From NCBI GenBank assembly GCA_964035575.1, contig OZ037835.1, forward strand, positions 1,860,001 to 1,924,000: 64,000 nt of DNA. Direction: 5' to 3'. The stretch is from Rhynchopus sp. YZ270_cl-10. Taxonomy: Eukaryota. Below, piece after piece: positions 16,892 to 51,885 of this stretch (position 1 is the first letter of the stretch; the number at the start of each line of letters is the position of its first letter). The translations under genes were made by a program, and so were the position numbers. Under the pieces are notes generated by a model. The model made no database searches. It had not been told where the DNA came from and saw only the letters and a program-made list of their open reading frames with translations.

Positions 16892-17962
16892 ATGGAAGTA
16901 GTTATCAAAGACTGTGCAGACAACTCGTACATGATCGAGGTGGGTGTGGGTGACACAACGGAGACGATGCGGCAGAAGGTGGCGTCTGCAGTGGGGTTGG
17001 CTGAGGACAGCTTCCACATGGGCTTCGGAGGGAAGGAGGAAGGAGACGACATCACGCAGCTGAGTGCTGGAGACGCAGTCGTGTTGACGAAAAGTAAGAA
17101 GTTCGTGGCCAGAGCAGCACTTCATGCGTTGGGTGAGAGGGACATCACTGCAGAGAGGCTGGAGACTGTGGAGGATCCTGAGGTGGCGTGTTTGCTTCTG
17201 CAGGCGGAGGTTGCGACTGTCATTCCGAATAAGTTCTTGGCACAGACATCATTAACAGCACTTGATCTGAGTGCTGTGTCCTGTGTGACGGAAATTGGTG
17301 ATAAGTTTCTTCACCGGTGCACATCGTTGACGAGCATCGACCTGTCTGGGTTGACACGCCTCACGCGGATTGGTCTCTACTTTCTTGCCAACTGCAGCAG
17401 CCTCACAGCAGTGGACTTATCATCATTTCGCAATGTTACACACATTGCCGGATGCTTTCTTGCACATTGCACCAGCCTCACATCAGTGGACTTATCACCA
17501 CTCAGCAATGTTACACAAATTGATGGCTACTTTCTTGCGGACTGCAGCAGCCTCACAACGGTGGACTTGTCGCTATTTCGCAATGCGACAGTAATACATG
17601 ATCGGTTTCTTTACAACTGCAGCAGCCTCACAGCAGTGGACTTATCTCCACTCAGAAATGTTACTCAAATTGATGCTCACTTTCTTGCCTACTGCAGCAG
17701 CCTCGAAGTAGTGGACTTAATACCGCTCAGAAATGTTACTCAAGTTGGTACATACTTTCTCACCGACTGCAGCAGCCTCACAGAACTAGACCTGTCGCCA
17801 CTCAGCAGAGTTACGTACTTTGGTTTACTTCCTGCTCACAACTGCACTTCGTTGAGGAGCATACACCTTGGCGGCTGCAGCAGTGCTGTGTCCAGTCGAG
17901 TACGTGAAGGCGAGCTGAAGGAGTATGTGGTTGACGCACGTCCTCGCTGCAGTGTTTCGTAA
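16892..17962 (+). CDS. UBL-LRR protein copy 1 (356 aa; 5 variable LRRs; ends CSVS)
   Basis: N-terminal ubiquitin-like sequence MEVVIKD...IEVGVGDTTETMRQKV...GL...FGGK, followed by 25-aa repeats FLxxCxSLTAVDLSPLRNVTxIxxx. Confidence 0.88.
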   Translation: MEVVIKDCADNSYMIEVGVGDTTETMRQKVASAVGLAEDSFHMGFGGKEEGDDITQLSAGDAVVLTKSKKFVARAALHALGERDITAERLETVEDPEVACLLLQAEVATVIPNKFLAQTSLTALDLSAVSCVTEIGDKFLHRCTSLTSIDLSGLTRLTRIGLYFLANCSSLTAVDLSSFRNVTHIAGCFLAHCTSLTSVDLSPLSNVTQIDGYFLADCSSLTTVDLSLFRNATVIHDRFLYNCSSLTAVDLSPLRNVTQIDAHFLAYCSSLEVVDLIPLRNVTQVGTYFLTDCSSLTELDLSPLSRVTYFGLLPAHNCTSLRSIHLGGCSSAVSSRVREGELKEYVVDARPRCSVS

Positions 17963-18814
17963 AGAGCCACATCAGAAGCTACGGAAGCAACGTAGAGCAG
18001 CTCCGCTGTGACAGCTGCTTCACTCAGCTGCACAACTCGCTCAGGTGTGCCTTCGAATATCGCCGCCCCTTTGGTCCCCATCTCGACGGCAGCGGCCTCA
18101 CCCACGCATTCTCTTTCAGGATGCACGACAAAATAGATTGACGATGCTTTTGCTGTGGGGTGGATGCGTACAACTAACAAACTCACCCCCTGTTTCGTTT
18201 CCCGTTTTCCTGTGTGGGTGAAGATAGCTATTGACACCGTAGTACTTGCCGTTGTGAGAGGGGTGGGGTGGAGAGGTGGGGTGGGGGCAAAAGGCATGTT
18301 TTTTTTTTTTTTTTTTTTTTTTACTGGTTTTCTTCCTTGCTTTCGTATTTTTTGTTTTCTTTATCTATGTGGATCCCCCCCAGTGAACCGTTAGGGACCC
18401 CGCTCTGCCGTGGCAGTCGTGGTTAGCGTTGTCATGTTTGTCTGTAGCACACAAGTAAGAAGAGAGACTCTAGGTCTCATTGGCGTCTGTTTCTCAAAAG
18501 TTTGGTTGTTGTTCTACTCTTGTGGGTTGCCGTTAAACGGAAGCGCCTCCCCATTTACCACGAAAATCGGGGGGAACATACAGGCTGCACAGATCTCCCC
18601 CCACTATGTGGCAGTCGAGCCTTGTTACGTGGCTCCCTGGCCTGACTGCGAACTCCGCGCAACCTCACACGAGGTTAACCACGGAGTCAAAAGGAAAAAA
18701 AAAATATGTTAAAAAAAAAAAAATTTATAAAGTGCACCCAAGCCCCGGGGCCTGGGCACTTTATAAATTAAAAGGAAAATCAATGATTTGTTTTTTTTTG
18801 TTTTTTTTTTTTTG

Positions 18815-18879
<65 letters not shown>

Positions 18880-19685
18880 GTGTTGTTCAACTTAGCCCAA
18901 GGCTCGACTTTTTTTTTTCCACATCAAACTGGACAGGGCGAGGGGGGTACGTTTACTATGCACATGAAAAGCACTTGGTCCGAGCGAAGCGAGGGCCAGA
19001 TGTCTTACAATCTGTACAGTGCCGGTTAGTTAGAACGAGGCACAAAAGTGAACAAAACTAGAGATGGATTGTTATTGTCATCAGCACAGTCAGCACCATT
19101 GACAATTGAGGAAAAATGGAGTATTAACATGGGAGAGGCAGGGGAGAAGACAGACTGTCCAGTCAGTGTGGTTTTACTTAGCGTTCCAGTTTGGTACCCA
19201 GCTGGTTCTGGAGGGGGGGGGGGGGGATGTTTTCTTTTTACAATACGAAGTTCCGTTCTTGTCACAACAAGCGTCCTTTTTGTTCTTTTTGTCCTTGTAG
19301 TCTTTTTTGATAGGGTAATTAACGCCATTAGCGGTCACTCATGGAACTCGTATGGGAGGGGCTGGGGGGGGGGGGGGAGGGAGGGAGGGGAAAGGGAATT
19401 CACAGATTACCAAACACATCATCTTACTCACGAGTCCTTTTTTTTTTTTTTTTTTTTGTTTTTTTTCTGTTTTTTTGTTGTTTTTTTTTTTTTTTGAAAA
19501 GTAAAAAGTATGTTTGAAAGTGTAACACACGTCTTCGTAGAAGACGGCGTTCCGCACATGTATTGTCTTCGCAACCGTCAGTTGCGCTGGTCGTGGTGCC
19601 GCAGGTACATCCTGGGCTTGCTTTTTGTTCGTGGTTTTTTTTTTTTTTCTTGTCTTTATTGTTTCAAGTTTTGGCCGGCGTCTCC

Positions 19686-22600
19686 TCAGTAGGTGTTGCT
19701 CCGCACGAGTTCAGGCAGGCTGGCCTCTGTCAGTTTTGCCGCGCTGATGTACTTCAGGCACAACTGGGGTTGCTCTAGCAGTAAGAACTTGAGCGACTTG
19801 TTTGGCAGTAGGTCTGTCCTTAGTGCCTTGGTGGCTGAACACACTTTGAACATGTGTTTCAGTGTCGCCTTTGATTTTGCCGTGCAGTTGTTGCAGCGTG
19901 CCACGTCGTTGCTGCCCATGTAGTCGAACAGCGCAGGGTGGCGCTCTGTCCGCAGCAGTCTCATCTGCACTGCTCCCCGCCGCGTGAGCTCCGGTGTGCT
20001 CAGCTTGGGTCGCGACACTCCCTTCGGGGTGTCCGCCGTGATCGTGCTGTAGAGTTCGCTCGCCGGTTGGGGTGTGTAGCTGGAGCAGACTGCGCGTATC
20101 GCCGCTTTGCACGCGAGGAGCGTGAGTGGTTCCTCTTGTAGGCGGCCTTTTTGTGATGCCCGTTCTGCTTGGTACGTGGCCGTACCTAACTTGGCTTCGT
20201 GGTCCGCTTCCTCATTTCCACTCACCCCCACATGTGACGGGATGTACTGCATGATCACCCGCACCTTGGTTGTAGCCCGGTGTAGTGCCGACCACACGTC
20301 GCAGAGAAGTCCCGTAGCCTTCACCGGACCTGTCTCCAACGCACGTAGTGCTGACTGGCTGTCTGTGAGGATTACCACCGTGTTGTGTTTGTGGTCTGTG
20401 CGGTGCAGTTCCTCCACCATCGGAAGTGCCTCTCTGATGGCCACCAGCTCGGCGGTGTACGATATGCTCATCCGCCCTGCTCCGACGTTGGCTGTCGCTA
20501 TTTCTTTGTCGCTGTCTCCCGGGTAGACCACAATGCCTGCACCCCCGTGGCCTCGTCCGCCTTCCACCGACCCGTCTGTGTAGACGTGAAGGTCCGCTGG
20601 TGGCAGCTCTGCGGTGGTCTGCTCTGTCAAGCTTCTCGCCTCTGCGTCCGTCTGCGTGCCCTTCTTGAAGCCAGCCACGTAGGGCCGGATGTCGACCTTG
20701 GGGAGGACCTCCTTCCAGCGCCAGGGTGCCACCGGGTAGTGTGTCTGGGACATCGCTGGTTGGTCGTGGCGGTACATCTTCGTCTGTTCCACTGTGTCCT
20801 TCGCCGACCGTAACCAGGTCAGTTTCGTATCGCTTGAATGCATTGCACACTCTGCTGGGGTCTCCAGTTGTCGACGTGCACGTTCGTACAGGGCTGCTGC
20901 ATCGAATTCGACGTGCTCTCGTATCTTCCTCAGGTGTGCTTCCCAGAGTAGGTCCTCTGCTTTGGTGTAGTAGTTACACCCGGTGATGACCCTCGCCCCC
21001 CTTCGGTGGAGTACTTCCAGAGTTTCAAGGCCTGCCTCATTTAGCGCTGGTCCCCACACCGCCAGTGCATACGTTATGGTCGGGAGCACGTACGTCATGT
21101 ACACCTGTCTCAGCATGTGGGCATCGCACCCCCAGTCCCGTCCAGCCATGAGCTGGATCAGAGAAAGTTTTTTGAGGAACTTCGTCTTCACCGCCGCCAG
21201 TTGTGGCTGCATCGTCAGTGCGTCATCCAGTTCCACCCCCAGGTAACGGACCGTCTGCGCACGGTTCACCACTGCTCCGTCTGCGTACTTCACTTCGCAC
21301 TTAGCTTTTCTGATGTCGGCACGATCGCCCTTCTCGGTCACTGGCATCACGAAGGTTTTCCTGCGGGATATCGTGAATCCAAGTTTGGGGAGGTGTTCCT
21401 CTAGCAGTGTAAGGACCTTCTGTATCGCCGCTGTTGCTTCCTCCAGTGTGCGCTCCGTACACATGATGGCCAGGTCGTCAGCGAAGATGCAGAAGTGGGC
21501 CGTCGTTCCTTCCAGGATCTCTGCCACCTCCGTCATCACCAGATTGAACAGTAGTGGTGAGAGCACTGTGCCCTGGGGAACACCCTCCCGCATCACGTAT
21601 TCCTCGCTCCGTGTTCCTTCCACCGTTGTCCTTGCCGTTCTGTGCTTCAGGTAATCCGTGAGCCACCTGATGTATCGCTCTGGTACCTGGTGTTGGTGGA
21701 GCCTTTCCAGAATTTTCCCCCGTTTAACCTTGTCGTAGGCCTTGTCGAGGTCCAGCGTCAGAATGATGGGGACTTCTTTCTTCGCTGCGGAGTCCTTAGC
21801 CAGCTGCGTGATGTAGGCCAGGTTGTCCACGGCGGAACGGAAGCGTCTGAATCCTGTCTGTTTGGGATGTAGGTTCTGTGTGGCCTCGTTTGGGTCTTCC
21901 ATCAGCTGGAGCAGTCTGTTCGCTAGCACGTGTTCCATCACCTTACTCACGGTACTCGTCAGGGCTATCGGCCGGTAGGATTCGAGGTCTTCCTCTGGCT
22001 TCCCTTGTTTGTGGATAGGGAAAAGTATGGCCTTCTTCCATTCTTTGGGTAGTTGCCCCTGCTTCCACGAGAGGTTCATGACATGTAGAAGCCCTTTTTT
22101 TGCGGCGGGTCCGAGGTGCATCAACATCTCGTTGTGTATCCCATCCGCTCCAGGTGACTTTCCTGCTTCTAGGACGTTCAGTGCGGCGTCCAGCTCCTCC
22201 AGTGTCAGGGGTGCTTCAGCTCCTTGGGATCCTGCCGTAGTTTGCTGCTCCGCATCCGGTAGGCCTGTGCCGTCACTCACGCTGCAGTAGTGCTCCCCCA
22301 GTGCGTCCGCCTTCTCCTTGTTGGTGGAGAGCTGTTGTTTTTCCTGTTGTCCCTCTTTTTTTACTTTTATGGGGTACGACTGCGCCTTGTCCGCCCGCCC
22401 GTCCAACTCGCGCAGCAGCCTGAAGGCCCCGGAGGTTGCTACTGCCTTGGTGCACTTGTCCTCCCACACCTCTCTCTTCGCCTTCCGTATCGCATTGGCC
22501 GTCTGCCGCCGGAGTTCCGTGAGTGCGTCCCCGTCGGCCACGGTCAGGGTCTCCTCCTTCTGCTGTCTGCGGAGTTCTCTGTCTCGTTGCTTCTGGGCCT

Positions 22601-23780
22601 TCTTCACCGCACCGTTGCACCAGCGTCGCTTCTTCTTCCTTGCCTTGCCTCTGGGGATGTGCCTCCTCGCGATGTTCTTCACCATCCCTGCCCACTTGGC
22701 TGCTGCGGTGCTGATCGAGCCCCACTTCATTGCGTCTGGCGAACTGCGCTCCATCTCCTTGGTGAAGCCTGCCCAGTTCGCCTTCTTCCAGTTCCACAGC
22801 TCTTTTTTGAGTTTCACCTCAGGATGTGTTGGAGGTGTTTGGGCGTTCGCTTGCACTTCAAACTCTATCGGCAGGTGGTCGGAGTTGAGCGTTTCCCGTG
22901 TTTGCCAATTGGGGTCGGCCCAGTCTCTGTCTGCGAAGACCACATCTGGTGACGTTTTGGTACCGCGCTGGATCCGCGTTGCTTCCTTCTTGTTCCAGCA
23001 TCGCATGTTGTTCCCCAACGCCCAGTCGTGTAGGTCAGTTCCCGTTTGGTTGGGAATTTTCGCCTGACTCCACGCCTGGTGATGTGCGTTGATGTCCCCT
23101 GCGATCACGCAGCCCTCTCCCGTTGGCAGATCCTGTGTTGCGAAGTCATCCTCTCTCTGGTCCCCCTTCTGTAGACCCACCCCGCTCGGCCGGTACACAT
23201 TCGTGAAGAGCACGCCCTCCACAATCACATCCAGCCTCTCTGTGGTCTCCCACGCTTCGAAGGGTTGTTCTGTCGCACGCAAGTTCTTCTTCACCAGTGT
23301 CGCAATCCCTCCCCCATGCGTCTCGCTGATGTCTTTTTTTCGAGCTACCGTTCGCACCCGCAGGAAAGTCCTGTACCCGTCAAAGTTCAGCTTGCCCGTT
23401 TGCGCCGCCATGAGTTCTTGGAGGTGTACTACATCGTACTTCTCCTTCTCCAGGACCTGCTTCAGCTCCCCTTTCTTCGGGCCCGTCAGCCCCCCCGCAT
23501 TCCAACTCATGCAGCGAAGGGTTCTTGGTTTTGGTCCTTGCTCTGGTTCTGGCTCTGGTCCTGGCTCAGGCTCGATGCCGTCCTCTAGCAGTTGGTTGCT
23601 CTTGATGGTGGAGGAGGTCTTGTCGAGTGTGGGGTCTGTGTTCGGTCGACCTGAGTGGTGTTGATGAGTCATCCTTGGGTGTGCGTGGGTCTTCCACTTG
23701 TACGGAAGCAAAAAAGGCAGTAGCAGCAGCAGCACACTATCCAGCATTAACCACACCAACAGCAACACCAGACACAACAG
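19686..23780 (-). CDS. Element A ORF2: APE endonuclease - reverse transcriptase - RNase H - C-terminal Cys/His knuckle (start undefined; in frame with ORF1)
   Basis: APE: SWNAGG, LQE, AGDINAHH, SDHLPI. RT: KSPGADG, YRPIALTS, QTGFR, LDLDKAYD, GVPQGTVLSP, FADD, YLGV. RNase H: YTDGS, AELVAI, TDSQSAL, PSHVGVSGNEEAD. Knuckle: CNNC...H...C. Confidence 0.95.
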   Translation of the reverse strand: MLCLVLLLVWLMLDSVLLLLLPFLLPYKWKTHAHPRMTHQHHSGRPNTDPTLDKTSSTIKSNQLLEDGIEPEPGPEPEPEQGPKPRTLRCMSWNAGGLTGPKKGELKQVLEKEKYDVVHLQELMAAQTGKLNFDGYRTFLRVRTVARKKDISETHGGGIATLVKKNLRATEQPFEAWETTERLDVIVEGVLFTNVYRPSGVGLQKGDQREDDFATQDLPTGEGCVIAGDINAHHQAWSQAKIPNQTGTDLHDWALGNNMRCWNKKEATRIQRGTKTSPDVVFADRDWADPNWQTRETLNSDHLPIEFEVQANAQTPPTHPEVKLKKELWNWKKANWAGFTKEMERSSPDAMKWGSISTAAAKWAGMVKNIARRHIPRGKARKKKRRWCNGAVKKAQKQRDRELRRQQKEETLTVADGDALTELRRQTANAIRKAKREVWEDKCTKAVATSGAFRLLRELDGRADKAQSYPIKVKKEGQQEKQQLSTNKEKADALGEHYCSVSDGTGLPDAEQQTTAGSQGAEAPLTLEELDAALNVLEAGKSPGADGIHNEMLMHLGPAAKKGLLHVMNLSWKQGQLPKEWKKAILFPIHKQGKPEEDLESYRPIALTSTVSKVMEHVLANRLLQLMEDPNEATQNLHPKQTGFRRFRSAVDNLAYITQLAKDSAAKKEVPIILTLDLDKAYDKVKRGKILERLHQHQVPERYIRWLTDYLKHRTARTTVEGTRSEEYVMREGVPQGTVLSPLLFNLVMTEVAEILEGTTAHFCIFADDLAIMCTERTLEEATAAIQKVLTLLEEHLPKLGFTISRRKTFVMPVTEKGDRADIRKAKCEVKYADGAVVNRAQTVRYLGVELDDALTMQPQLAAVKTKFLKKLSLIQLMAGRDWGCDAHMLRQVYMTYVLPTITYALAVWGPALNEAGLETLEVLHRRGARVITGCNYYTKAEDLLWEAHLRKIREHVEFDAAALYERARRQLETPAECAMHSSDTKLTWLRSAKDTVEQTKMYRHDQPAMSQTHYPVAPWRWKEVLPKVDIRPYVAGFKKGTQTDAEARSLTEQTTAELPPADLHVYTDGSVEGGRGHGGAGIVVYPGDSDKEIATANVGAGRMSISYTAELVAIREALPMVEELHRTDHKHNTVVILTDSQSALRALETGPVKATGLLCDVWSALHRATTKVRVIMQYIPSHVGVSGNEEADHEAKLGTATYQAERASQKGRLQEEPLTLLACKAAIRAVCSSYTPQPASELYSTITADTPKGVSRPKLSTPELTRRGAVQMRLLRTERHPALFDYMGSNDVARCNNCTAKSKATLKHMFKVCSATKALRTDLLPNKSLKFLLLEQPQLCLKYISAAKLTEASLPELVRSNTY

Positions 23781-25871
23781 TCAGTACCGCATGCTGCGGC
23801 GCTTCTCTTTCTCTTTCCTTGGCGAGGGGGAGGGCGTCGTCGCTAAGATCCGTCGTGTGTTCTTGGGGGTGGCACGGTCACGTTCGTCCCGCTCCGCTCT
23901 CTTCCCCCTGTTCAGCTGCTTGGGTGGCGTCAAGCCCATGCGGAGGCGGCGTTCTTCTGCGTGGAGGACGTCCCTCGCACGTTTCAGCTGGCGTTCCTCC
24001 TCCTGGCGCACCAGTGCTGCCGCTGTCGCGAGATCCATCTCCTCCTCTCGCTCTGTTTCCCGCTTTTTTTTTAAAAAAGCCTCGTAAGAGGCTTCGGCCT
24101 CTTGCAGCACTGCCTCCGTCGCCAGCCGTTTCGCTTCTGCTGAGGCGAATGCGTTCCTCCTCTTCTCCTCGGCCAACTCCTCCTGGCGTGTCTTCTTCAG
24201 GATTTCGTTATACTCCTGCCACTGTGCTTCTTCGCGTGCCTTCGCTTCTGCCCTCTCCGCCTCTGCAGTGTCGAATTCACGGCGGCGGTCCGTCTCTTCC
24301 TGCCGCCTCTGTGCCTGCAGCCGTTCTTCTGCTTCTTCTCTCTGTTCGCGTTGCTGTTGTTGTTGCCTCTGCTGTTGTTGCTGCCGCTGCTGCTGTTGCT
24401 GCCGCTGCTGCTGTTGTTGCCGCTGCTGCTGTTGTTGCTGCTGTTGCTTCCGCTCCTGCGTTTGCGTGGGTTCCTTCTTCGCCTTCGTCTCCTTCTTCGG
24501 CGGTGCCGTCACCTTCACCTCCTCATCGATTTGCATCTCGCCTTCTCCTTCTTCTTCTTCTTCTTCTTCTTCCGGTTCGGTGCGTCGCTGTTGTAGCTTT
24601 AGGTCGCGCATCTCCGTCATCAGCTGGTCCAGCTGGCTCGCCATGCGTTGCAGCGTCTGCTGCATCTCGTCCTTCTCTGCCCGCAGTGCACCTTCTCTCT
24701 CCTTCGACTCCAGGAGTTCCCGACGCATCTTCTCCACCTCGGCGTCCTGTGCGGGGTAGGGCTTGGGCACGTAGTCCTGCTGTGCCGCCCTTCCTTCCTC
24801 TTTTCCTTTTCCTTTTTTATTTGCGGCGTCAAACAGCCACCCTTCTTTGGTACGGTCGTACCGACGGAAGGTCAGCACGTCCTCCCCCACCACTACCGGC
24901 TTCAGCGTCCCCGGCGGTGCGCCCCGGACGAGAAGCACCCTGTGCGTGCCGTGCTTGCCGGTCCTCACCAACTCCGGCTCCCACGCGTGCTGCTCGCTCA
25001 GGATTGCCCGCACTCCGTTCTTCGACAGCGAGAGAGGCAGCCCGTCCACCACCCACATCTCTGCCCAGAGGTTCGTCTTCCCCTGCTCGCCCAACACCTT
25101 GCTGGCCTGCTCCTGTGTGGTGCCTTCCGGAACCGCGACGCCGAGTCCGCCCCGCGACAGCAGCACCACTCGCCCGCTCAGCTCGGTGGCCTGGTTCCGC
25201 GCCGTCTCCAGGTTCACTGTGCTCGGTAGCGGCGTCACCCGGTCGCCACCCCGTCCCGACCCGTTGGTGAAGAACGGCCTGGCGAAGAAGCCGTCATCGC
25301 CGCTTCCTGCCAGCACGTCCTTCACCTGCGCGCCGTCTACTCCAATCTTAAAAGCCGCCGTCTTTGCGGCTGGCTTCCCCTTCTTCGCCTTCAGCTCCAC
25401 GGCGGTCTGCACCTCGCCTCCGTGTGCCTTCACCCATGCACATGCTGCGGCACGGGTCACGCTGTTGCGGCTTTCCACCACAACGTATTTGGTTTGGGGC
25501 AATGCCCCCTGGTGCTGCTTTGCACCCGCCGTCTTGTGCACCGCCTGTACGGTGCTGACTGAGCACAGGAACCGGCGCTCCGTCCTCATCTCCTCCCCCC
25601 GCACCGTCACGAGGGAGATCAGTGGGGCCGCCAACCCCTGTGGTTTGTCGGCCGGGGCTACGAGTACCCCTGCCGTGTGCTGGTGCTGCGGCTTCTGCAG
25701 CGCTTCCTCCACTTCCTTACGGCTGCACCACAGGATGCCTCCGTTTTTCTTAAAATCAGCCAAGTTGGCTGCGAGTCGGCTGTCAGGAAAGTCCTCAGCC
25801 CGGGGTCTCCACATCGCCCCTGCCACCTCTTCGTCAGCCTTCTTCATCGTCTGCTGTCCAGAGGACCCCAT
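23781..25871 (-). CDS. Element A ORF1 (696 aa; globular N-half, coiled-coil/polyQ C-half)
   Basis: Long ORF directly upstream of ORF2 inside the TSD-bounded element; E/Q/R-rich C-terminal half. Confidence 0.85.
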   Translation of the reverse strand: MGSSGQQTMKKADEEVAGAMWRPRAEDFPDSRLAANLADFKKNGGILWCSRKEVEEALQKPQHQHTAGVLVAPADKPQGLAAPLISLVTVRGEEMRTERRFLCSVSTVQAVHKTAGAKQHQGALPQTKYVVVESRNSVTRAAACAWVKAHGGEVQTAVELKAKKGKPAAKTAAFKIGVDGAQVKDVLAGSGDDGFFARPFFTNGSGRGGDRVTPLPSTVNLETARNQATELSGRVVLLSRGGLGVAVPEGTTQEQASKVLGEQGKTNLWAEMWVVDGLPLSLSKNGVRAILSEQHAWEPELVRTGKHGTHRVLLVRGAPPGTLKPVVVGEDVLTFRRYDRTKEGWLFDAANKKGKGKEEGRAAQQDYVPKPYPAQDAEVEKMRRELLESKEREGALRAEKDEMQQTLQRMASQLDQLMTEMRDLKLQQRRTEPEEEEEEEEGEGEMQIDEEVKVTAPPKKETKAKKEPTQTQERKQQQQQQQQRQQQQQRQQQQQRQQQQQRQQQQQREQREEAEERLQAQRRQEETDRRREFDTAEAERAEAKAREEAQWQEYNEILKKTRQEELAEEKRRNAFASAEAKRLATEAVLQEAEASYEAFLKKKRETEREEEMDLATAAALVRQEEERQLKRARDVLHAEERRLRMGLTPPKQLNRGKRAERDERDRATPKNTRRILATTPSPSPRKEKEKRRSMRY

Positions 25872-26714
25872 CGTGGAGGGGGGTGGCTTTTTTGGGGGGA
25901 GGGGGGGAGCAGTTGGGATGTGCTCAGGGTTAATTCTTGATTCACTGTGTCCTCCTTATTCGTGGAATCGGATGTAAATAACAAAGTGTTTTTATGTGGG
26001 TGGTGTCAATCATGACGTCAATTCGCGTACACAAAAGTGTGCAGTGGCCAGAAGACAAGCTTGAATATATTATTTTCATCATGTTCTTAGGTGGCGGCTC
26101 TCCGATTCAGGCACCCCTACCGTAATAGGCACACCTTCACCGTGCCCGTCCCCAGGCCAAAGCCGAACGGGGTCCGCCATAGGGTCTTGAGAGCGCCGAC
26201 TTTGGGTACGTTAATCCCTTACCATACCTACTCATCGACGGAGCTGTGCGTTATGGGTAAGGAGTGCTCTTAGAGCCCACCTCGGGGTCGCTCATGTATC
26301 CCCCCCAAAGGTATTGTCCCACGGGCGGTCGCAGGGCTCTAGTTCATCCCCCCATACGTCCCCGGCACAAGGCCTTCGCGCGGTCAAAGGAATCCCATCA
26401 TACCCCCCCTACCTACTAGGAACATACCTCCACGACTGGATGCAGTTTTAGGTCATACCCAGGACCTGGGGGGGGTGTTTTTGTTTCATAAAAAGCTCCA
26501 ACAATTTTGTAGAATCTGCCAAAGGGAGTGGGGTTTCGTGTGTTTAGCATTTGAGTCGATGACAGACACCCCAGACTGTTTTTCCGCTTTCAGGTCGCAA
26601 CAGTGCAGGGAAGTGTCCCAAAACGATTTTCTGGGGGGTTTTGCGTGTAAATAGGGTCAGCACACTGGTGGGTCCGTGCTGTTTTTTCCACAGAACCGAC
26701 ATGTGGGACATGTC

Positions 26715-27178: not shown

Positions 27179-28057
27179 ATGGAAGTAGTTATCAAGGACT
27201 GTGCAGACAACTCGTACATGATCGAGGTGGGTGTGGGTGACACAACGGAGACGATGCGGCAGAAGGTGGCGTCTGCAGTGGGGTTGGCTGAGGACAGCTT
27301 CCACATGGGCTTCGGAGGGAAGGACGAAGGAGACGACATCACGCAGCTGAGTGCTGGAGACGCAGTCGTGTTGACGAAAAGTAAGAAGTTCGTGGCCAGA
27401 GCAGCACTTCATGCGTTGGGTGAGGACATCACTGCAGAGAGGCTGGAGACTGTGGAGGATCCTGAGGTTGCGTGTTTGCTTCTGCAGGCGGAGGTTGCGA
27501 CTGTCATTCCGAACAATTTCTTGGCACAGACATCGTTAACAGCACTTGATCTGAGTGCTGTGTCCTGTGTGACGGAAATTGGTGATCAGTTTCTTCACCG
27601 GTGCACATCGTTGACGAGCATCGACCTGTCTGGGTTGACACGTCTCACGCGGATTGGTCTCTACTTTCTTGCCCACTGCAACAGCCTCACAGCAGTGGAC
27701 TTATCACCACTTTGCAACGTAACACAAATTGATGACCACTTTCTTGCCGGCTGCAGCAGCCTGAAAGTTGTGGACTTATCACCACTCAGAAATGTTACTG
27801 AAATCGGCACTAACTTTCTCGCAGGCTGCATCAGCCTCACAGAACTAGACCTGTCACCACTCAGCAGAGTTACGCACTTTGGTGAGCGCTTTGCTGTCAT
27901 CTGCACTTCGTTGAGGAGCATCCACCTTGGCGGCTGTAGCAGTGCTGTGTCCAGTCGAGTACGTGCAGGCAATCTGAAGAAGTATGTGGTTGACGCACCT
28001 CCGACACGTGTCAGAGGCAAGACGAAAGCAGCCTTGCTTCGCTGCAGTGTTTCGTAA
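27179..28057 (+). CDS. UBL-LRR protein copy 2 (292 aa; 2 variable LRRs; ends CSVS)
   Basis: Paralogue of copy 1. Confidence 0.88.
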   Translation: MEVVIKDCADNSYMIEVGVGDTTETMRQKVASAVGLAEDSFHMGFGGKDEGDDITQLSAGDAVVLTKSKKFVARAALHALGEDITAERLETVEDPEVACLLLQAEVATVIPNNFLAQTSLTALDLSAVSCVTEIGDQFLHRCTSLTSIDLSGLTRLTRIGLYFLAHCNSLTAVDLSPLCNVTQIDDHFLAGCSSLKVVDLSPLRNVTEIGTNFLAGCISLTELDLSPLSRVTHFGERFAVICTSLRSIHLGGCSSAVSSRVRAGNLKKYVVDAPPTRVRGKTKAALLRCSVS

Positions 28058-29043: not shown

Positions 29044-30009
29044 ATGGAAGTAGTTATCAAAGACTGTGCAGACAACTCGTACGTGATCGAGGTGGGTGTG
29101 GATGACACAACGGAGACGATGCGGCAGAAGGTGGCGTCTGCAGTGGGGTTGGCTGAGGACAGCTTCCACATGGGCTTCGGAGGGAAGGAGGAAGGAGACG
29201 ACATCACGCAGCTGAGTGCTGGAGACGCAGTCGTGTTGACGAAAAGTAAGAAGTTCGTGGCCAGAGCAGCACTTCATGCGTTGGGTGAGGACATCACTGC
29301 AGAGAGGCTGGTGACTGTGGAGGATCCTGAGGTGGCGTGTTTGCTTCTGCAGGCAGAGGTTGCGACTGTCATTCCGAACAATTTCTTGTCACAGACATCG
29401 TTAACAGCACTTGATCTGAGTGCTGTGTCCTGTGTGACGGAAATAGGTGAGCAGTTTCTTCACCGGTGCACATCGTTGACAAGCATCGACCTGTCTGGGT
29501 TGACACGTCTCACGCGGATTGGTACCCACTTTCTTGCTCGATGCAGCAGCCTCACAGCAGTAGAGTTGTCAGCACTTCTCAATGTTACTCATATCGGGAC
29601 AAGCTTTCTTTTAAGCTGCTGGAGCCTCACAGCAGTGGACTTATCGCCACTTCGCAATGTTACACAGATTGGTACAGGCTTTCTTATCAACTGCTCCGGT
29701 CTCACAGCAGTCGACTTATCACCACTCCGCAATGTCACCAAAATAGGTGCAAACTTACTTTCTGACTGCAAAAGCCTCACAGAACTAGACCTGTCGCCAC
29801 TCAGCAGAGTTGCGCACTTTGGTGAGCTACCTGCTAACAGCTACACTTCGTTGAGGAGCATCCACCTTGCCGGCTGCAGCAGTGCTGTGTCCAGTCGAGT
29901 ATGTGTAGGCGAGCTGAAGCAGTATGTAGTTGATGCACCTCCACCTCCACCTCCGACACGTGGCAGAGACAAGACGAAAGCAGCCTTGCCTTGCTGCAGT
30001 GTTTCGTAA
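29044..30009 (+). CDS. UBL-LRR protein copy 3 (321 aa; 3 variable LRRs; ends CCSVS)
   Basis: Paralogue; start assigned by homology (ATGGAAGTAGTT). Confidence 0.88.
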   Translation: MEVVIKDCADNSYVIEVGVDDTTETMRQKVASAVGLAEDSFHMGFGGKEEGDDITQLSAGDAVVLTKSKKFVARAALHALGEDITAERLVTVEDPEVACLLLQAEVATVIPNNFLSQTSLTALDLSAVSCVTEIGEQFLHRCTSLTSIDLSGLTRLTRIGTHFLARCSSLTAVELSALLNVTHIGTSFLLSCWSLTAVDLSPLRNVTQIGTGFLINCSGLTAVDLSPLRNVTKIGANLLSDCKSLTELDLSPLSRVAHFGELPANSYTSLRSIHLAGCSSAVSSRVCVGELKQYVVDAPPPPPPTRGRDKTKAALPCCSVS

Positions 30010-32950: not shown

Positions 32951-32987
32951 GGGAAGAAGGACGGCGGCGGGGGGCAGCCTCGACGCG

Positions 32988-41975: not shown

Positions 41976-43485
41976 CATCATCTCCACGATGTATTGTATC
42001 ACCTATCTCGGATAGGGGTGCATGCATCGAAAACGGGCCCCCACCTCTGACGAAAGCTAAGAAGTTCGAGGCCAGAGCAGCACTTCATGCGTTGGGTGAG
42101 GACATCACTGCAGAGAGGCTAAAGACTGTGAGGGATGCTGAGGTTGCGTGTTTGCTTCTGCAGGCGGAGGTTGCGACTGTCATTCCGAATCAGTTCTTGG
42201 CACAGACATCGTTAACAGCACTTGATCTGAGTGCTGTGTCCTGTGTGACGGAAATTGGTGATAAGTTTCTTCACCAGTGCACATCGTTGACGAGCATCGA
42301 CCTGTCTGGGTTGACACGTCTCACGCGGATTGGTACCCAGTTTCTTTCCGGCTGCAAGAGCCTCACAGCAGTAGGCTTATCATCATTTCGCAATGTTACA
42401 CACATTGCCGGATGCTTTCTTGCCCACTGCTGCAGCCTCACAGCAGTGGACTTATCACCACTCAGCAATGTTACACAAATTGATGGCTACTTTCTTGACT
42501 ACTGCAGGAGCCTCAAAGCAGCGGACTTATCGCCACTTCGCAATGTTGCATACATTGGTCGCTTCTTTCTTTACAACTGCAACAGCCTCACAGCAGTGGA
42601 CTTGTCAGCGCTCAGCAATGTTACACACATTGATGGCAACTTTCTTGCCTGCTGCAGCAGGCTCACAGAACTAGACCTGTCGCCACTCAGCAGAGTTGCG
42701 CACTTTGGTAAGGACCCTGCTTACGGCTGCACTTCATTGAGGAGCATCCACCTTGGCGGCTGCAGCAGTGCTGTGTCCAGTCGAGTATGTGTAGGCAATC
42801 TGAAGAAGTATGTGGTTGACACACTTACACCTCCACCTCCACCTCCGACACGTGGCAGAGACAAGACGAAAGCAGCCGTTCCTTGCTGTAGTGTTTCGTA
42901 AAGAGCGACAGGAGAAGCTGGGCAAGGAACGTAGAGCAGCTCCGCTGTGACGGCTGTACCCTCATCAAAAGTTCTAAACAAAGTGTGACATGGAGGGGGA
43001 AGCGTTCAACATATCAATCTCAACCACCATTCCGATTCTCGCGATTGTTGCCCTTTTTTCTGAATCTACAACACACACAGCGCATGCACGTTCAGATTAG
43101 TTCATAAGGGTTTGGAATACAATGACGCCGCACTCCTAGGTTTCCTTCTTATGTTTATGATTACATGCAATGCTAAAAGGAAATAGAACACCGTACCCCT
43201 ACTCCCATCCTTCTTCCATATTTTTTAATCCGGGGCGGGTTGGAGTAGAGCCACATTTCACCGGCAGGTAGAGGTGTGTGCGTTTCACCACCCGCAACTT
43301 TGCTTTGTCTAAAAGCTTTCACTGCTCTCCTTCCAAGCTTGCTCTGATACAACTTCAAAGTGTACGGCTACCTACAAAGGAAGCGGCTTTGGTGAGGTGT
43401 TGTTTTCCTTTCACCATGTTCACCCACCACAGCCCCAACTCCCACAACCCCACCACACAACAGAGCAACACAAAAGGAAGACAAA

Positions 43486-44478
43486 ATGGAAGTAGTTATC
43501 AGGGACTGTGCAGACAACTCGTACGTGATCGAGGTGGGCGTGGATGACACAACGGAGACGATGCGGCAGAAGGTGGCGTCTGCAGTGGGGTTGGCTGAGG
43601 ACAGCTTCCACATGGGCTTCGGAGGGAAGGAGGAAGGAGACGACATCACGCAGCTGAGTGCTGGAGACGCAATCGTGTTGACGGAAACTAAGAAGTTAGA
43701 GGCCAGAGCAGCACTTCATGCGTTGGGTGAGGACATCACTGCAGAGAGGCTGGTGACTGTGGAGGATCCTGAGGTGGCGTGTTTGCTTCTGCAGGCGGAG
43801 GTTGCGACTGTCATTCCGAATCAGTTCTTGGCACAGACATCGTTAACAGCACTTGATCTGAGTGCTGTGTCCTGTGTAACGGAAATTGGTGATGAGTTTC
43901 TTCACCGGTGCACATCGTTGACGAGCGTCGACCTGTCTGGGTTGACACGTCTCACGCGGATTGGTACCCACTTTCTTGCCGACTGCAGGAGCCTCACAGC
44001 AGTGGACTTACCGCTACTTCGCAATGTTACACACATTAGTACAAGATTTCTGTACAACTGCAACAGCCTCAAAGTAGTGGACTTATCACCACTCAGCAAT
44101 GTTACACACATTCGTACAAGCTTTCTTGCCCACTGCAGCAGCCTCACCTCAGTGGACTTTTCACCATTTCTCAATGTTACAAGCATTCGTACAGGCTTTC
44201 TTTCCTACTGCAGGAGCCTCGCAGCAGTGGACTTATCGCCACTTTGCAATGTAACACAAATTGCTGACCTGTTTCTTTCCGAATGCAGGAGCCTCACAGA
44301 ACTAGACCTGTCACCGCTCAGCAGAGTTACATTCTTGGGTGAGCATGTTGCTTTCAACTGCATTTCGTTGAGGAGCATCTACCTTGCCGGCTGCAGCAGT
44401 GCTGTGTCCAGTCGAGTACGTGAATGCAAGCTGAAGAAGTATGTGGTTGACGCACGTCCTCGCTGCGTTGTTTCGTAA
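43486..44478 (+). CDS. UBL-LRR protein copy 6 (330 aa; 4 variable LRRs; ends CVVS)
   Basis: Paralogue. Confidence 0.88.
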   Translation: MEVVIRDCADNSYVIEVGVDDTTETMRQKVASAVGLAEDSFHMGFGGKEEGDDITQLSAGDAIVLTETKKLEARAALHALGEDITAERLVTVEDPEVACLLLQAEVATVIPNQFLAQTSLTALDLSAVSCVTEIGDEFLHRCTSLTSVDLSGLTRLTRIGTHFLADCRSLTAVDLPLLRNVTHISTRFLYNCNSLKVVDLSPLSNVTHIRTSFLAHCSSLTSVDFSPFLNVTSIRTGFLSYCRSLAAVDLSPLCNVTQIADLFLSECRSLTELDLSPLSRVTFLGEHVAFNCISLRSIYLAGCSSAVSSRVRECKLKKYVVDARPRCVVS

Positions 44479-44569
44479 ATAGCTACATCAGAAGCTAGGC
44501 AAGGAACGTAGAGCAGCTCCGCTGTGACAGCTGCTTGTCCCATTCTGCGACGTCGGTGTGAGTCTTTGA

Positions 44570-45531: not shown

Positions 45532-46572
45532 ATGGAAGTAGTTATCAAGGACTGTGCAGACAACTCGTACATGATTGAGGTGGGTGTGGATGACACAACG
45601 GAGACGATGCGGCAGAAGGTGGCGTCTGCAGTGGGGTTGGCTGAGGACAGCTTCCACATGGGCTTCGGAGGGAAGGAGGAAGGAGACGACATCACGCAGC
45701 TGAGTGCTGGAGACGCAATCGTGTTGACGAAAAGTAAGAAGTTCGTGGCCAGAGCAGCACTTCATGCGTTGGGTGAGGACATCACTGCAGAGAGGCTGGT
45801 GACTGTGGAGGATCCTGAGGTTGCGTGTTTGCTTCTGCAGGCGGAGGTTGCGACTGTCATTCCGAATAGGTTTTTGGCACACACATCGTTAACAGCACTT
45901 GATCTGAGTGCTGTGTCCTGTGTGACGGAAATTGGTCATGAGTTTCTTTACCGGTGCACATCGTTGACGAGCATCGACCTGTCTGGGTTGATATGTCTCA
46001 CGCGGATTGGTAGCAGCTTTCTTGACAGCTGCACCAGCCTCACAGCAGTAGACTTATCGCCACTTCGCAATGTTACACACATTGCTACATACTTTCTTGC
46101 CTACTGCACCAGCCTCACAGCGGTAGATTTGTCACCACTTCGCAATGTTACTCAAATTGATAACCGGTTTCTTTACAACTGCAGCAGCCTCACATCAGTG
46201 GACTTATCACCACTCAGCAATATTACTCAAATTGGAACAAGGTTTCTATCTGACTGCAGAAGCCTCACAGCAGTAGACTTATCGTCACTCAGCAATGTTA
46301 CTCGAATTGGCACAAGCTTTCTATCCGACTGCAAAAGCCTGACAGAACTAGACCTGTCACCGCTCAGCAGAGTTACGCACTTTGGTGAGCTTCCTGCTGA
46401 CAGCTGCACTTCATTGAGGAGCATCCACCTTGGCGGCTGCAGCAGTGCTGTGTCCAGTCGAGTACGTGAATTCAAGCTGAAGAAGTATGTGGTTGACGCA
46501 CCTCCACCTCCACCTCCGACACGTGGCAGAGACAAGACGAAAGCAGCCTTGCCTTGCTGCAGTGTTTCGTAA
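45532..46572 (+). CDS. UBL-LRR protein copy 7 (346 aa; 4 variable LRRs; ends CCSVS)
   Basis: Paralogue. Confidence 0.88.
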   Translation: MEVVIKDCADNSYMIEVGVDDTTETMRQKVASAVGLAEDSFHMGFGGKEEGDDITQLSAGDAIVLTKSKKFVARAALHALGEDITAERLVTVEDPEVACLLLQAEVATVIPNRFLAHTSLTALDLSAVSCVTEIGHEFLYRCTSLTSIDLSGLICLTRIGSSFLDSCTSLTAVDLSPLRNVTHIATYFLAYCTSLTAVDLSPLRNVTQIDNRFLYNCSSLTSVDLSPLSNITQIGTRFLSDCRSLTAVDLSSLSNVTRIGTSFLSDCKSLTELDLSPLSRVTHFGELPADSCTSLRSIHLGGCSSAVSSRVREFKLKKYVVDAPPPPPPTRGRDKTKAALPCCSVS

Positions 46573-47304: not shown

Positions 47305-48345
47305 ATGGAAGTAGTTATCAAGGACTGTGCAGACAACTCGTACGTGATTGAGGTGGGTGTGGATGACACAACGGAGACGATGCGGCAGAAGGTGGCGTCT
47401 GCAGTGGGGTTGGCTGAGGACAGCTTCCACATGGGCTTCGGAGGGAAGGACGAAGGAGACGACATCACGCAGCTGAGTGCTGGAGACGCAATCATTCTGA
47501 CGGAAAGTAAGAAGTTCGTGGCCAGAGCAGCACTTCATGCGTTGGGTGAGGACATCACAGCGGTGCGGCTGGTGACTGTGGAGGATCCTGAGGTGGCGTG
47601 TTTGCTTCTGCAGGCGGAGGTTGCGACTGTCATTCCGAATAAGTTCTTGGCACAGACATCGTTAACAGCACTTGATCTGAGTGCTGTGTCCTGTGTGACG
47701 GAAATTGGTGATGACTTTCTTCACCACTGCACAACGTTGACGAGCATCGACCTGTCTGGGTTGACACGTGTCACGCGGATTGGCACCCACTTTGTCGCCC
47801 AATGCAGCAGCCTCACAGCAGTAGACTTGTCGCTACTTCGCAATGTTACACACATTAGTACAAGATTTCTGTACAACTGCACGAGCCTCACATCAGTGGA
47901 CTTATCGCCACTTCGCAATGTTAGACAAATTGATTACTGGTTTCTTTCCAACTGCACCAGCCTCACATCAGTGGACTTATCACCACTTCGCAATATTACT
48001 CAAATTGATGGCCACTTTCTTGCCTACTGCACCAGCCTCAAAGTAGTGGACTTATCACCACTTTGCAATGTTACTCAAGTTGGTACTAACTTTCTCACCT
48101 TCTGCAGGAGCCTCACAGAACTAGACCTGTCGCCACTCAGCAGAGTTACGTTCTTTGGTGAGCAGCTTGCTTACAACTGCACTTCGTTGAGGAGCATCCA
48201 CCTTGCCGGCTGCAGCAGTGCTGTGTCCAGTCGAGTACGTGAAGGCGATCTGAAGGAGTATGTGGTTGACGCACGTCCTCGCTGCAGTGTTTCGCAAAGA
48301 GCCACATCAGAAGCTACGGAAGGACGTAGAGCAGCTCCGCTGTGA
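47305..48345 (+). CDS. UBL-LRR protein copy 8 (346 aa; 4 variable LRRs; extended past CSVS)
   Basis: Paralogue; TAA>CAA at the conserved stop. Confidence 0.88.
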   Translation: MEVVIKDCADNSYVIEVGVDDTTETMRQKVASAVGLAEDSFHMGFGGKDEGDDITQLSAGDAIILTESKKFVARAALHALGEDITAVRLVTVEDPEVACLLLQAEVATVIPNKFLAQTSLTALDLSAVSCVTEIGDDFLHHCTTLTSIDLSGLTRVTRIGTHFVAQCSSLTAVDLSLLRNVTHISTRFLYNCTSLTSVDLSPLRNVRQIDYWFLSNCTSLTSVDLSPLRNITQIDGHFLAYCTSLKVVDLSPLCNVTQVGTNFLTFCRSLTELDLSPLSRVTFFGEQLAYNCTSLRSIHLAGCSSAVSSRVREGDLKEYVVDARPRCSVSQRATSEATEGRRAAPL

Positions 48346-50234: not shown

Positions 50235-50495
50235 ATGAATAAAAAATGTTAAAATCAAAAAGGAAGAACATAACAATGTGGTTTTCAACAGGGATAAGCT
50301 CCAAGTACCTACAAAGTGGCATCCACCCATTTCTAAAATGTGGTGCATGAGAGAGAAATGTGCAGAGCTTTGTGTGCGAATGCAAAGGAAAACATGGTGC
50401 TTTGTGAACAGCTCTCAGCGGCCCTGTTCCAACAATGTAACAAAATGCCTAAAAAAGTACAAAACAAAATCCCGTTGTTATTTTTCTTTCACCAT

Positions 50496-50611
50496 CACCA
50501 GTGTGATCTGGGTGAGGAAGCGTTCCAACTTTTCAATATCTCACCCATTTTTTCTATTCGCGATTTTTTCCCCACCCCGTTTTTAGAATCAACAAAGTGT
50601 GTACATTAAGA
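50496..50611 (+). mobile_element. 116-bp insertion flanked by a TTTCACCAT direct repeat; related copy at ~59821-59933
   Basis: Paralogous upstream regions read ctttcaccatgttcacc without the insert. Repeats at 50487-50495 and 50612-50620. Confidence 0.7.
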
Positions 50612-50691
50612 TTTCACCATGTTCACCCACCACATCCCCAACTCCCACAACCCCACCACACAACAGAGCAACACAAAGAATAGAAGACAAC

Positions 50692-51885
50692 ATGGAAGTA
50701 GTTATCAAGGACTGTGCAGACAACTCGTACGTTATCGAGGTGGGTGTGGATGACACAACGGAGACGATGCGGCAGAAGGTGGCGTCTGCAGTGGGGTTGG
50801 CTGAGGACAGCTTCCACATGGGCTTCGGAGGGAAGGAGGAAGGAGACGACATCACGCAGCTGAGTGCTGGAGACGCAATCGTGTTGACGAAAACTCAGAA
50901 GTTCGCGGCCAGAGCAGCACTTCATGCGTTGGGTGAGAGGGACATCACTGCAGAGAGGCTGGTGACTGTGGAGGATCCTGAGGTTGCGCGTTTGCTTCTG
51001 CAGGCGGAGGTTGCGACTGTCATTCCGAATAAGTTCTTCGCACAGACATCGTTAACAGCACTTGATCTGAGTGCTATGTCCTGTGTGACGGAAATTGGTG
51101 CTCAGTTTCTTCACGGGTGCGCAACGTTAACAAGCCTCGACCTTTCTGGGTTGACACGTCTCACCCGGATTGGTAACAGCTTTGTTTCCGACTGCACCAG
51201 CCTCACAGCAGTGGACTTATCACCACTTCGCAATGTTACACACATTCGTGCAAGATTTCTTTTCAACTGCAGGAGACTCACAGAACTAGACTTATCACCG
51301 CTCAGCAGTGTGTCACAAATAAATAGCTGGTTTCTTGCCTTGTGCAGCAGCCTCACTGCAGTGGACTTAGCACCACTTCGCAATGTTACTCAAATTGATG
51401 ACCGGTTTCTTTCCCACTGCACCAGCCTCACAACAGTAGACTTATCATCACTTCGCAATGTTACACACATTAATGAGCGGTTTCTTGCCTACTGCAGCAG
51501 CCTCACAACAGTGGACATATCACCACTTCGCAGTGTTACTCACATTGACACAAGCTTTCTTGACCACTGCAGCAGCCTCACAGCAGTCGACTTATCACCA
51601 CTCCGCAATGTCACCAAAATAGGTTCAACCTTACTTTCTGACTGCAGCAGCCTCACAGAACTAGACCTGTCAACACTCAGCAGAGTTACGCACTTTGGTG
51701 AGCTACCTGCTTACAACTGCACTTCGTTGAGGAGCATCCACCTTGGCGGCTGCAGCAGTGCTGTGTCCAGTCGAGTACGTGAAGGCGAGCTGAAGAAGTA
51801 TGTGGTTGACGCACCTCCACCTCCACCTCCGACACGTGGCAGAGACAAGACGAAAGCAGCCGTGCCTTGCTGCAGTGTTTCGTAA
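50692..51885 (+). CDS. UBL-LRR protein copy 9 (397 aa; 6 variable LRRs; ends CCSVS)
   Basis: Paralogue. Confidence 0.88.
   Translation: MEVVIKDCADNSYVIEVGVDDTTETMRQKVASAVGLAEDSFHMGFGGKEEGDDITQLSAGDAIVLTKTQKFAARAALHALGERDITAERLVTVEDPEVARLLLQAEVATVIPNKFFAQTSLTALDLSAMSCVTEIGAQFLHGCATLTSLDLSGLTRLTRIGNSFVSDCTSLTAVDLSPLRNVTHIRARFLFNCRRLTELDLSPLSSVSQINSWFLALCSSLTAVDLAPLRNVTQIDDRFLSHCTSLTTVDLSSLRNVTHINERFLAYCSSLTTVDISPLRSVTHIDTSFLDHCSSLTAVDLSPLRNVTKIGSTLLSDCSSLTELDLSTLSRVTHFGELPAYNCTSLRSIHLGGCSSAVSSRVREGELKKYVVDAPPPPPPTRGRDKTKAAVPCCSVS

What the first reader, a model, noticed from the sequence alone, without database searches (positions are those of the whole stretch)
16892..51885. Nine-gene UBL + hypervariable LRR + CaaX array: a candidate diversified receptor/adaptor repertoire
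Seen: the first ~135 aa (ubiquitin-like domain plus cap) are almost invariant. The central 25-aa LRR cassette varies in number (5,2,3,4,4,4,4,4,6) and is hypervariable at the residues around FL (xxxFLxxC), while the scaffold is constant. Most copies end CSVS, CCSVS or CVVS. Established: BspA/TpLRR-type families are expanded in some protists, and Entamoeba members carry CaaX. Inference: membrane-anchored variable binders coupled to ubiquitin/proteasome machinery, possibly immune-like. I do not recognise this three-part architecture.
Basis: partly seen in the sequence, partly recalled or inferred. Interest (0 to 1): 0.75.

Follow-up and report, generated by a model that had tools for sequence, protein, structure and literature searches.

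The report
Ubiquitin-LRR family targeted by a retrotransposon
Nine neighbouring genes of a protist (likely a diplonemid) join a conserved ubiquitin-like head to fast-changing leucine-rich repeats and likely bind variable partners inside the cell, and one jumping gene has repeatedly inserted at the same spot in this gene family, including in one of the nine.

Summary
The array is real: nine gene units with the repeat counts reported. The head folds as ubiquitin and the repeats are BspA/TpLRR-type. The cluster is a small part of a large family (540 hits, 120 seen) in a likely diplonemid. Three corrections. (1) CSVS marks one young subfamily: 21 of 120 end so, and 22 of 120 end in a bipartite-NLS-like tail. 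(2) The ubiquitin Ile44 patch and the GG end are absent, so a proteasome link is unsupported. (3) dN/dS at the variable sites is 2.2-6.4 in terminal repeats but only 1.2-3.9 in central ones, not significant once synonymous rates vary. The same element or a sister sits at the same codon (±1) in 11 other paralogues, with differing 5' ends. This resembles the trypanosome RHS hot spot in an unrelated gene family. Expression, prenylation, ligands and exclusive targeting are untested.

The parts
16892..17962 (+). Copy 1: UBL + helical cap + 8 LRR (5 central), ends RCSVS
27179..28057 (+). Copy 2: 5 LRR (2 central), ends RCSVS
29044..30009 (+). Copy 3: 6 LRR (3 central), ends CCSVS
30930..31958 (+). 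Copy 4: 7 LRR; stop after CSVS lost, no terminal CaaX
32657..32866 (+). Copy 5, 5' piece: UBL head (codons 1-70); the reading runs 25 codons into the element and stops
32848..32866 (+). Left target-site duplication, 19 bp
32867..42045 (+). 9,179-bp non-LTR retrotransposon inserted in sense at the UBL/cap junction; no poly(A) tail; predicted 3' stem-loop (-23.4 kcal/mol, no shuffle control)
32988..36968 (+). Element ORF1 (1326 aa) with N-terminal OTU-like cysteine protease (PF02338, E 7.6e-10)
36969..41975 (+). Element ORF2 frame, in frame with ORF1 after one TGA: 2A-like motif (GDVEEHPGP), APE endonuclease, RT; no RNase H hit
42046..42064 (+). Right target-site duplication, 19 bp
42046..42901 (+). 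Copy 5, 3' piece: cap + 7 LRR, ends CCSVS (disrupted gene)
43486..44478 (+). Copy 6: 7 LRR, ends RCVVS
45532..46572 (+). Copy 7: 7 LRR, ends CCSVS; the copy used for models and searches
47305..48345 (+). Copy 8: 7 LRR; stop after CSVS lost, no terminal CaaX
50692..51885 (+). Copy 9: 9 LRR (6 central), ends CCSVS
19686..25955 (-). A second, different LINE (ORF1, then APE + RT + RNase H) between copies 1 and 2; ends not mapped

Best explanation
This is one tandem cluster of a large, lineage-restricted family in which a conserved ubiquitin-fold head is joined to BspA-type repeats with variable surface residues; the proteins likely work inside the cell as variable binders that dock through the head on a fixed host partner, and the genes carry a fixed insertion site used repeatedly by one LINE family. 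Shown: the architecture, the variation in repeat number, purifying selection on the head (dN/dS 0.2-0.35), excess amino-acid change at five repeat positions, alternative C-terminal tails, and twelve separate insertions at codons 69-71. Inferred: repeat number changes by unequal crossing-over and conversion between 75-bp units; tails act as address tags (CSVS for the cytosolic face of membranes if prenylated, a bipartite NLS-like tail for the nucleus); the ligands are fast-changing foreign or selfish proteins; the head does not act through the canonical Ile44 patch. The LINE likely nicks at a conserved sequence at the end of the UBL by target-primed reverse transcription and so breaks family members, using a many-copy coding family as a tolerated landing site.
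For: Fold: head; LRR; best VIA rows are TpLRR/BspA structures 4fs7 Z 16.4 rmsd 4.3 over 248, 4h09, 6mlx. Family size: 540 hits, the 120 listed on over 30 contigs. Beyond the family, the next hits among 1.84 billion representatives are polyubiquitins at about 26%. Selection: variable sites were fixed from non-window proteins. Nine genes, fixed repeats: dN/dS 6.4 with shared dS (p about 1e-17), 2.2 with free dS (p 0.03); head 0.21-0.35. Mosaicism: PHI-like p 0.024 for genes; P0098 has an NLS-clade head and a CSVS tail. Tail constraint: in 22 proteins picked by their C-cap, C-S-V-S is invariant while each of the 8 residues before it varies; 20 of 22 stop there. Hot spot: of 38 family proteins that end early, 10 continue in the window's element by tblastn and 1 more by an exact 7-residue match, all at codons 69-71, all in sense. 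Their 5' ends fall at about element positions 1, 2, 3691, 4887, 5863, 5957, 7141, 7698, 8243, 8374 and 8532, in heads 47-96% identical to copy 7. The ten looked up (nine of these 11 plus the 3'-junction protein P0223) lie on 8 contigs. Crude chance 7e-13. From the element side, 4 of 6 displayed loose-end rows at its 3' end run into the cap of other paralogues.
Against: No ligand, partner or localisation is shown. In the 36 central repeats dN/dS is 1.8-3.9 with shared dS but 1.2-1.4 and not significant (p 0.5, 0.21) with free dS. The synonymous rate at variable codons is raised 1.6-3.5-fold. Eight closest repeat pairs show no excess (6.5 non-synonymous and 4.5 synonymous changes at variable sites; these pairs were chosen by similarity). 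Scaffold and cap are weakly constrained (0.7-0.86), and many paralogues are broken (38 of 218 end early), as near-neutral turnover would give. PHI-like test on central repeats p 0.08. X=Ser is a poor T. brucei farnesyltransferase substrate, and 2 of 9 copies lost the terminal motif. Targeting is not shown to be exclusive: of the 6 rows at the 3' end, 1 leads into non-family DNA and 1 is too short to call, and 23 rows were not displayed. The protein-side search could only find insertions in this family.
Confidence: 0.6

Rival explanations
1. Near-neutral birth-and-death repeat family: the genes multiply by unequal crossing-over, the loop residues drift under relaxed constraint with local conversion tracts, and most copies do little.
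For: Central-cassette dN/dS not significantly above 1 with free dS; raised synonymous rate at variable codons; no excess in close pairs; many broken copies; units carry fragments of the neighbouring gene.
Against: Head under purifying selection (0.2-0.35); structural repeat positions invariant; dN/dS 2.2 even with free dS in the fixed repeats (p 0.03); CSVS kept invariant through different upstream deletions.
Confidence: 0.2
2. One reading: membrane-anchored, prenylated substrate adaptors that deliver bound targets to the proteasome through the UBL.
For: Ubiquitin fold, with UBL domains of Dsk2 and Rad23 among the tied matches; invariant CSVS with basic residues and often a second Cys upstream; K29 invariant in 66 of 66.
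Against: Ile44-equivalent Gly or Ser and Val70-equivalent mostly Thr; CSVS in only 21 of 120; X=Ser disfavoured by the T. brucei enzyme.
Confidence: 0.12
3. Delivered effectors: the UBL is a Crinkler-like header that moves LRR proteins into prey or host cells, where the NLS or CaaX tail is read by the target cell.
For: CRN headers are Ubl folds without signal peptides and many CRNs carry an NLS (PMC5289972, passages); this family has both features.
Against: No toxin or enzyme domain by Pfam in the nine copies; the head is closer to ubiquitin than to anything else; no delivery route is known.
Confidence: 0.08

Closest known systems
Trypanosome RHS (retrotransposon hot spot) family with ingi/RIME (PMC7563717, passages; the primary paper was not held)
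   Same: Euglenozoan multigene protein-coding family with a conserved N-terminus, a variable C-terminus, a fixed LINE insertion site in the 5' coding region that makes pseudogenes, mosaic evolution and nuclear members.
   Different: [quoted passage not shown] The element here has an ORF1 with OTU and no RNase H hit, unlike ingi (APE, RT, RNase H, poly(A); PMC12278014, passages).
Entamoeba and Trichomonas BspA-like expansions (PMC2843621, PMC5349171, passages; PMC8136499)
   Same: Hundreds of LRR_5 paralogues in a protist; some Entamoeba members have a C-terminal CAAX.
   Different: The word ubiquitin does not occur in the main text of either BspA paper. Those proteins are treated as surface proteins of parasites; here there is no signal peptide, and a sister subfamily has NLS-like tails.
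Target-specific APE LINEs (Tx1 and R1 clades, Mutsu, Keno; PMC4640811, PMC5340908, passages)
   Same: APE + RT, one site, one orientation, variable 5' ends, a target duplication, a multicopy target.
   Different: The targets listed there are rRNA, tRNA, snRNA and SL genes, transposons, microsatellites and telomeres, not a divergent protein-coding family. Clade membership was not tested.
Ubiquitin + DUF285 repeat proteins (ESM Atlas clusters of 50-76 members)
   Same: A ubiquitin-like domain joined to an LRR-related solenoid.
   Different: A different repeat family; scores 0.75-0.84, so leads only; undescribed in the passages read.
Crinkler (CR) effectors with a Ubl header (PMC5289972, passages)
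   Same: N-terminal Ubl on an expanded, recombining family with NLS.
   Different: CR C-termini are enzyme or toxin domains; here they are LRRs.

Membership tests
BspA/TpLRR (Pfam LRR_5) | LRR_5 profile above the curated cut-off | tested here: met
   9 of 9 copies, 53-114 bits against a cut-off of 27.7
BspA/TpLRR (Pfam LRR_5) | Solenoid closest to TpLRR structures | tested here: met
   Top VIA rows 4fs7, 4h09, 6mlx, Z 15.5-16.4; single-sequence model, pLDDT 74.5
BspA surface adhesins | Signal peptide or transmembrane anchor | tested here: not met
   By inspection of the sequences: the N-terminus is the UBL and no hydrophobic segment is seen; no predictor was run
Integral ubiquitin-like domain | Beta-grasp fold | tested here: met
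   Pfam ubiquitin is weak in window copies (E 0.1-0.24) but above cut-off in several paralogues
Ubiquitin-like modifier | C-terminal di-glycine | tested here: not met
   The head ends LTK(S/T)K and continues into the cap
Proteasome-binding UBL (Rad23/Dsk2 type) | Ile44-centred hydrophobic patch (feature recalled) | tested here: not met
   Aligned position is Gly in 53 and Ser in 11 of 66; Val70-equivalent is Thr in 61 of 66
CaaX prenylation substrate | Cys four residues from the C-terminus | tested here: met
   7 of 9 units, 6 of them intact genes
CaaX prenylation substrate | X residue accepted by the host prenyltransferase | tested here: inconclusive
   Ser is accepted by the mammalian enzyme but not readily by T. 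brucei's; the diplonemid enzyme was not examined
CaaX prenylation substrate | Actual prenylation and membrane localisation | not testable with these tools
   Needs labelling and microscopy
RHS family | RHS domain / ATP-GTP-binding motif | tested here: not met
   No such Pfam hit in the nine copies
RHS family | Fixed LINE insertion site in the 5' coding region | tested here: met
   12 insertions at codons 69-71
Ingi clade | Single ORF with APE, RT and RNase H; poly(A) tail | tested here: not met
   Two ORFs, no RNase H hit, no poly(A); the 2A-like motif is shared
Target-specific non-LTR retrotransposon | APE/RT, target duplication, same site and orientation, variable 5' ends | tested here: met
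Target-specific non-LTR retrotransposon | Most genomic copies at the target | tested here: inconclusive
Target-specific non-LTR retrotransposon | RT phylogeny within Tx1 or R1 | not tested
   No reference RT set was at hand; nearest named relatives are D. papillatum elements at 51%
Crinkler/CR effector | C-terminal toxin or enzyme domain | tested here: not met
   Only LRR families above cut-off, apart from a marginal Receptor L match in copy 1
Somatically assembled LRR receptors (VLR-like, recalled) | Incomplete germline gene plus donor cassettes | tested here: not met
   Each unit is a complete gene; cell-to-cell variation was not testable

The most novel reading that the evidence does not exclude
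An intragenomic conflict: the UBL-LRR family is a diversifying intracellular defence repertoire, and a sequence-specific LINE that carries its own OTU deubiquitinase has specialised on it. By inserting exactly at the end of the ubiquitin-like domain, the element knocks out defence genes and can be expressed as a UBL-fusion from the host start codon (in frame in P0190 and P0153), which its OTU might cleave.
Probability: 0.15. Interest if true: 0.9.

Novelty: new variant of a known kind. Interest (0 to 1): 0.68.

Why it matters
It gives a second euglenozoan case, unrelated to RHS, of a LINE using one codon position of a large protein-coding family. The target here is a family that looks like a variable-recognition repertoire. 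With many divergent targets hit by near-identical elements, the sequence rules of the APE endonuclease can be read from the genome and tested in vitro. It also points to a candidate intracellular recognition system in a protist group whose defences are little studied: one body, with swappable nuclear or membrane address tags.

Tried and rejected
No RNA holder listed; the runs laid are contigs of unrecorded type and say nothing on expression. A frameshift origin of CSVS from the NLS-like tail was considered: a profile of 27 basic tails matched no frame of the window tails beyond the shared first residues, so it is not supported. One old insertion copied by duplication was rejected as the source of the hot spot: the 5' ends differ, and elements 94-100% alike (5 cases) sit in heads 47-96% alike. 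Splicing-out of the element was rejected by inspection: ends are GA..CC and a 19-bp duplication would shift the frame. No relatives of the head in the metagenome or viral contig collections (close relatives only). No Rfam match in the window. A Rhynchopus euleeides transcript (P0208) has a related UBL without cap or LRR; no named UBL+LRR_5 relative from another species was seen, but only 120 of 540 and 150 of 196 hits were listed. Which face of the solenoid carries the variable residues could not be determined: no coordinates, and the TpLRR paper is not held. The family tree is a quick tree on 113 columns with few strong branches. No complex prediction was run. Literature searches found no description of this family or element. 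Supplements were not read; Additional file 1 of PMC10161547 (repeats) may bear on the element. Earlier-findings look-ups were empty.
Full report
Observation. The window holds nine + strand, intron-less units of one gene family. Each has about 117 residues of head and cap, then exact 25-aa repeats and a C-cap. Central repeat counts are 5,2,3,4,4,4,4,4,6 as reported. Variation concentrates at positions 18-20 and 23-24 around FL, and also at 16 and 1, both in the 36 central repeats and in 96 repeats of 18 non-window paralogues. Seven of nine end in CxxS; copies 4 and 8 lost the stop. Short unique pieces are present unchanged in contigs of four public runs.

Host. No genome is held. The neighbouring PH + inositol-phosphatase gene has Diplonema papillatum as its only hit named to species (43%), and the element's RT is 51% identical to D. 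papillatum elements. The host is therefore likely a diplonemid other than D. papillatum. This is an inference.

Domains. All nine copies pass the LRR_5 cut-off, and the model's best structural matches are TpLRR/BspA proteins (Z 16.4, rmsd 4.3, 248 aligned). The head, modelled with a 66-row alignment (pLDDT 68), matches ubiquitin (Z 10.8, rmsd 1.6, 67 aligned). Outside the family the next sequence hits are polyubiquitins at about 26%. The head lacks the C-terminal GG. The residue aligned to Ile44 is Gly or Ser in 64 of 66 heads and that aligned to Val70 is Thr in 61 of 66. The role of that patch in proteasome-receptor binding is recalled knowledge; on it, a Rad23-like function is unlikely. The helical cap (about residues 69-105) was barely tested by the fold search.

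Family. The head finds 540 proteins, of which 120 were listed, on over 30 contigs (counted by eye); apart from the five window proteins all are unnamed ENA records. Tails of the 120: CSVS 21, bipartite-NLS-like (KR-x10-12-KRxR type; motif recalled) 22, other 77. On a quick tree the CSVS proteins mostly sit close together on short branches, NLS tails occur in several clades, and P0098 joins an NLS-clade head to a CSVS tail. In 22 proteins chosen by their C-cap, C-S-V-S is invariant, the eight residues before it vary, and 20 stop there, which suggests constraint. Against prenylation, T. brucei farnesyltransferase does not readily modify X=Ser (PMC3206815, passages).

Selection. Variable sites were fixed beforehand from non-window proteins. 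On the alignable blocks of the nine genes, a codon model gives dN/dS 6.4 at these sites, 0.21 in the head and 0.74-0.82 in cap and scaffold with a shared synonymous rate. With class-specific rates the variable sites give 2.2 (p 0.03) and a synonymous rate raised 2.5-3.2-fold. In the central repeats the values are 1.8-3.9 (shared) and 1.2-1.4 (free; p 0.5 and 0.21). Eight closest repeat pairs show no excess. A PHI-like test gives p 0.024 for genes and 0.08 for repeats. Recombination can inflate these tests. Diversifying selection is likely in the terminal repeats and unresolved in the central cassette.

Hot spot. The element has an ORF1 with an OTU-like protease, one in-frame stop, then a 2A-like motif, APE and RT, with no RNase H hit. 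Among 218 stored family-like proteins, 38 end before residue 100. Ten of these continue in the window's element by tblastn and one more by an exact 7-residue match. All 11 break at codons 69-71 and in sense, with 5' ends spread from about position 1 to 8532 of the element. None of the 38 matched the element at another codon. The heads are 47-96% identical to copy 7 while five inserts are 94-100% identical to the window element, so these are separate, recent insertions into old paralogues. The ten looked up (nine of the 11 plus P0223) lie on eight contigs. A crude uniform null gives 7e-13. Four further proteins begin in the element's last bases and run into the cap (three matched by eye, one by tblastn). 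Laying public contigs on the element's 3' end is unbiased for target: of six displayed loose-end rows there, four translate as the cap of other paralogues, one is too short and one is non-family DNA; 23 rows were not displayed. A fixed hot spot is shown; exclusive targeting is likely but not shown. In P0190 and P0153 the host head is fused in frame to ORF1 or RT; in the window it is not. OTU domains also occur in related elements from other sources, so OTU alone is not evidence of conflict with this family.

Mechanism. Most likely the family encodes intracellular variable binders: a constrained head docks on a fixed partner, the repeat cassette changes in number and surface residues by unequal exchange plus selection, and the tail sets the compartment. 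The LINE uses a conserved sequence at the end of the head as a tolerated multicopy landing site. Architecture, selection contrast, tail classes and hot spot are shown. Binding, localisation, partners, ligands and any immune role are inferred (confidence 0.6). Rivals are near-neutral turnover (0.2), prenylated proteasome adaptors (0.12) and delivered effectors (0.08).

Comparison. It works like the trypanosome RHS hot spot (PMC7563717, passages) but is neither RHS nor ingi. It resembles the Entamoeba and Trichomonas BspA expansions (PMC2843621, PMC5349171, passages) but has a ubiquitin head and NLS-like variants. Targets of site-specific LINEs listed in PMC4640811 (passages) do not include protein-coding families. 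2A-like motifs, including the N>H variant, are known from L1Tc (PMC3708506, passages). Ubiquitin + DUF285 clusters exist in the ESM Atlas as weak leads. From memory, plants have a UBL + LRR protein (At2g30105); this was not checked. The D. papillatum genome paper's main text has no hit for LRR, ankyrin or ubiquitin (PMC10161547, passages and section 8; supplements not read). Searches found no description of this family or element in the held library.

Verdict. Real, and a new variant of known kinds. The architecture is as described, the CaaX/proteasome reading is only partly supported, and the strongest new result is the recurrent LINE insertion at one codon of the family. Interest 0.68.

Noticed in passing
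paralogues P0159, P0186, P0191, P0260, P0169, P0180, P0182, P0275: A second recurrent break at about codons 90-92: four paralogues continue with one shared short peptide and three with another shared sequence, which is also seen at codon 52 in P0275. Neither matches the window. It may be a second site-preferring mobile element or a mobile intron.
   Followed up: partly
window 773-9685: Separate tandem array of four ankyrin-repeat genes, each with a bipartite-NLS-like stretch (MPKR...PRKRRQ or similar) near the N-terminus.
   Followed up: no
window 19686-25955 (-) and 32853-41975 (+): Both LINEs have ORF1 and ORF2 in the same frame separated by a single stop, followed by a 2A-like or degenerate 2A-like motif; possible readthrough or reinitiation.
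   Followed up: partly
P0404: A related APE-RT protein (41% in RT, cluster of 8) begins with a ubiquitin domain ending in LRGG, which suggests ubiquitin leaders on LINE proteins in this group.
   Followed up: no
P0194, P0204, P0217: Family members with an extra N-terminal zinc-finger-like and helical region before the UBL-LRR (Pfam B-box hit in P0204), a TRIM-like arrangement.
   Followed up: no
window 16092-17655 vs 28244-29804; 44512-44727: Duplication units carry fragments of the neighbouring PH-inositol-5-phosphatase gene (14643-16178).
   Followed up: partly
window 41986-42033: The element's 3' stem-loop region is shared with several other sequences that have different upstream DNA; possibly sister LINEs or SINEs.
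   Followed up: no
window 61426-62570: Tandem array of a unit of about 31 bp; also very high contig depth around 49000-53500, suggesting dispersed repeats.
   Followed up: no
window 55786-57810: Intron-less FAD-dependent oxidoreductase (PF12831) with an apparent signal peptide and a weak ricin-B lectin match.
   Followed up: no
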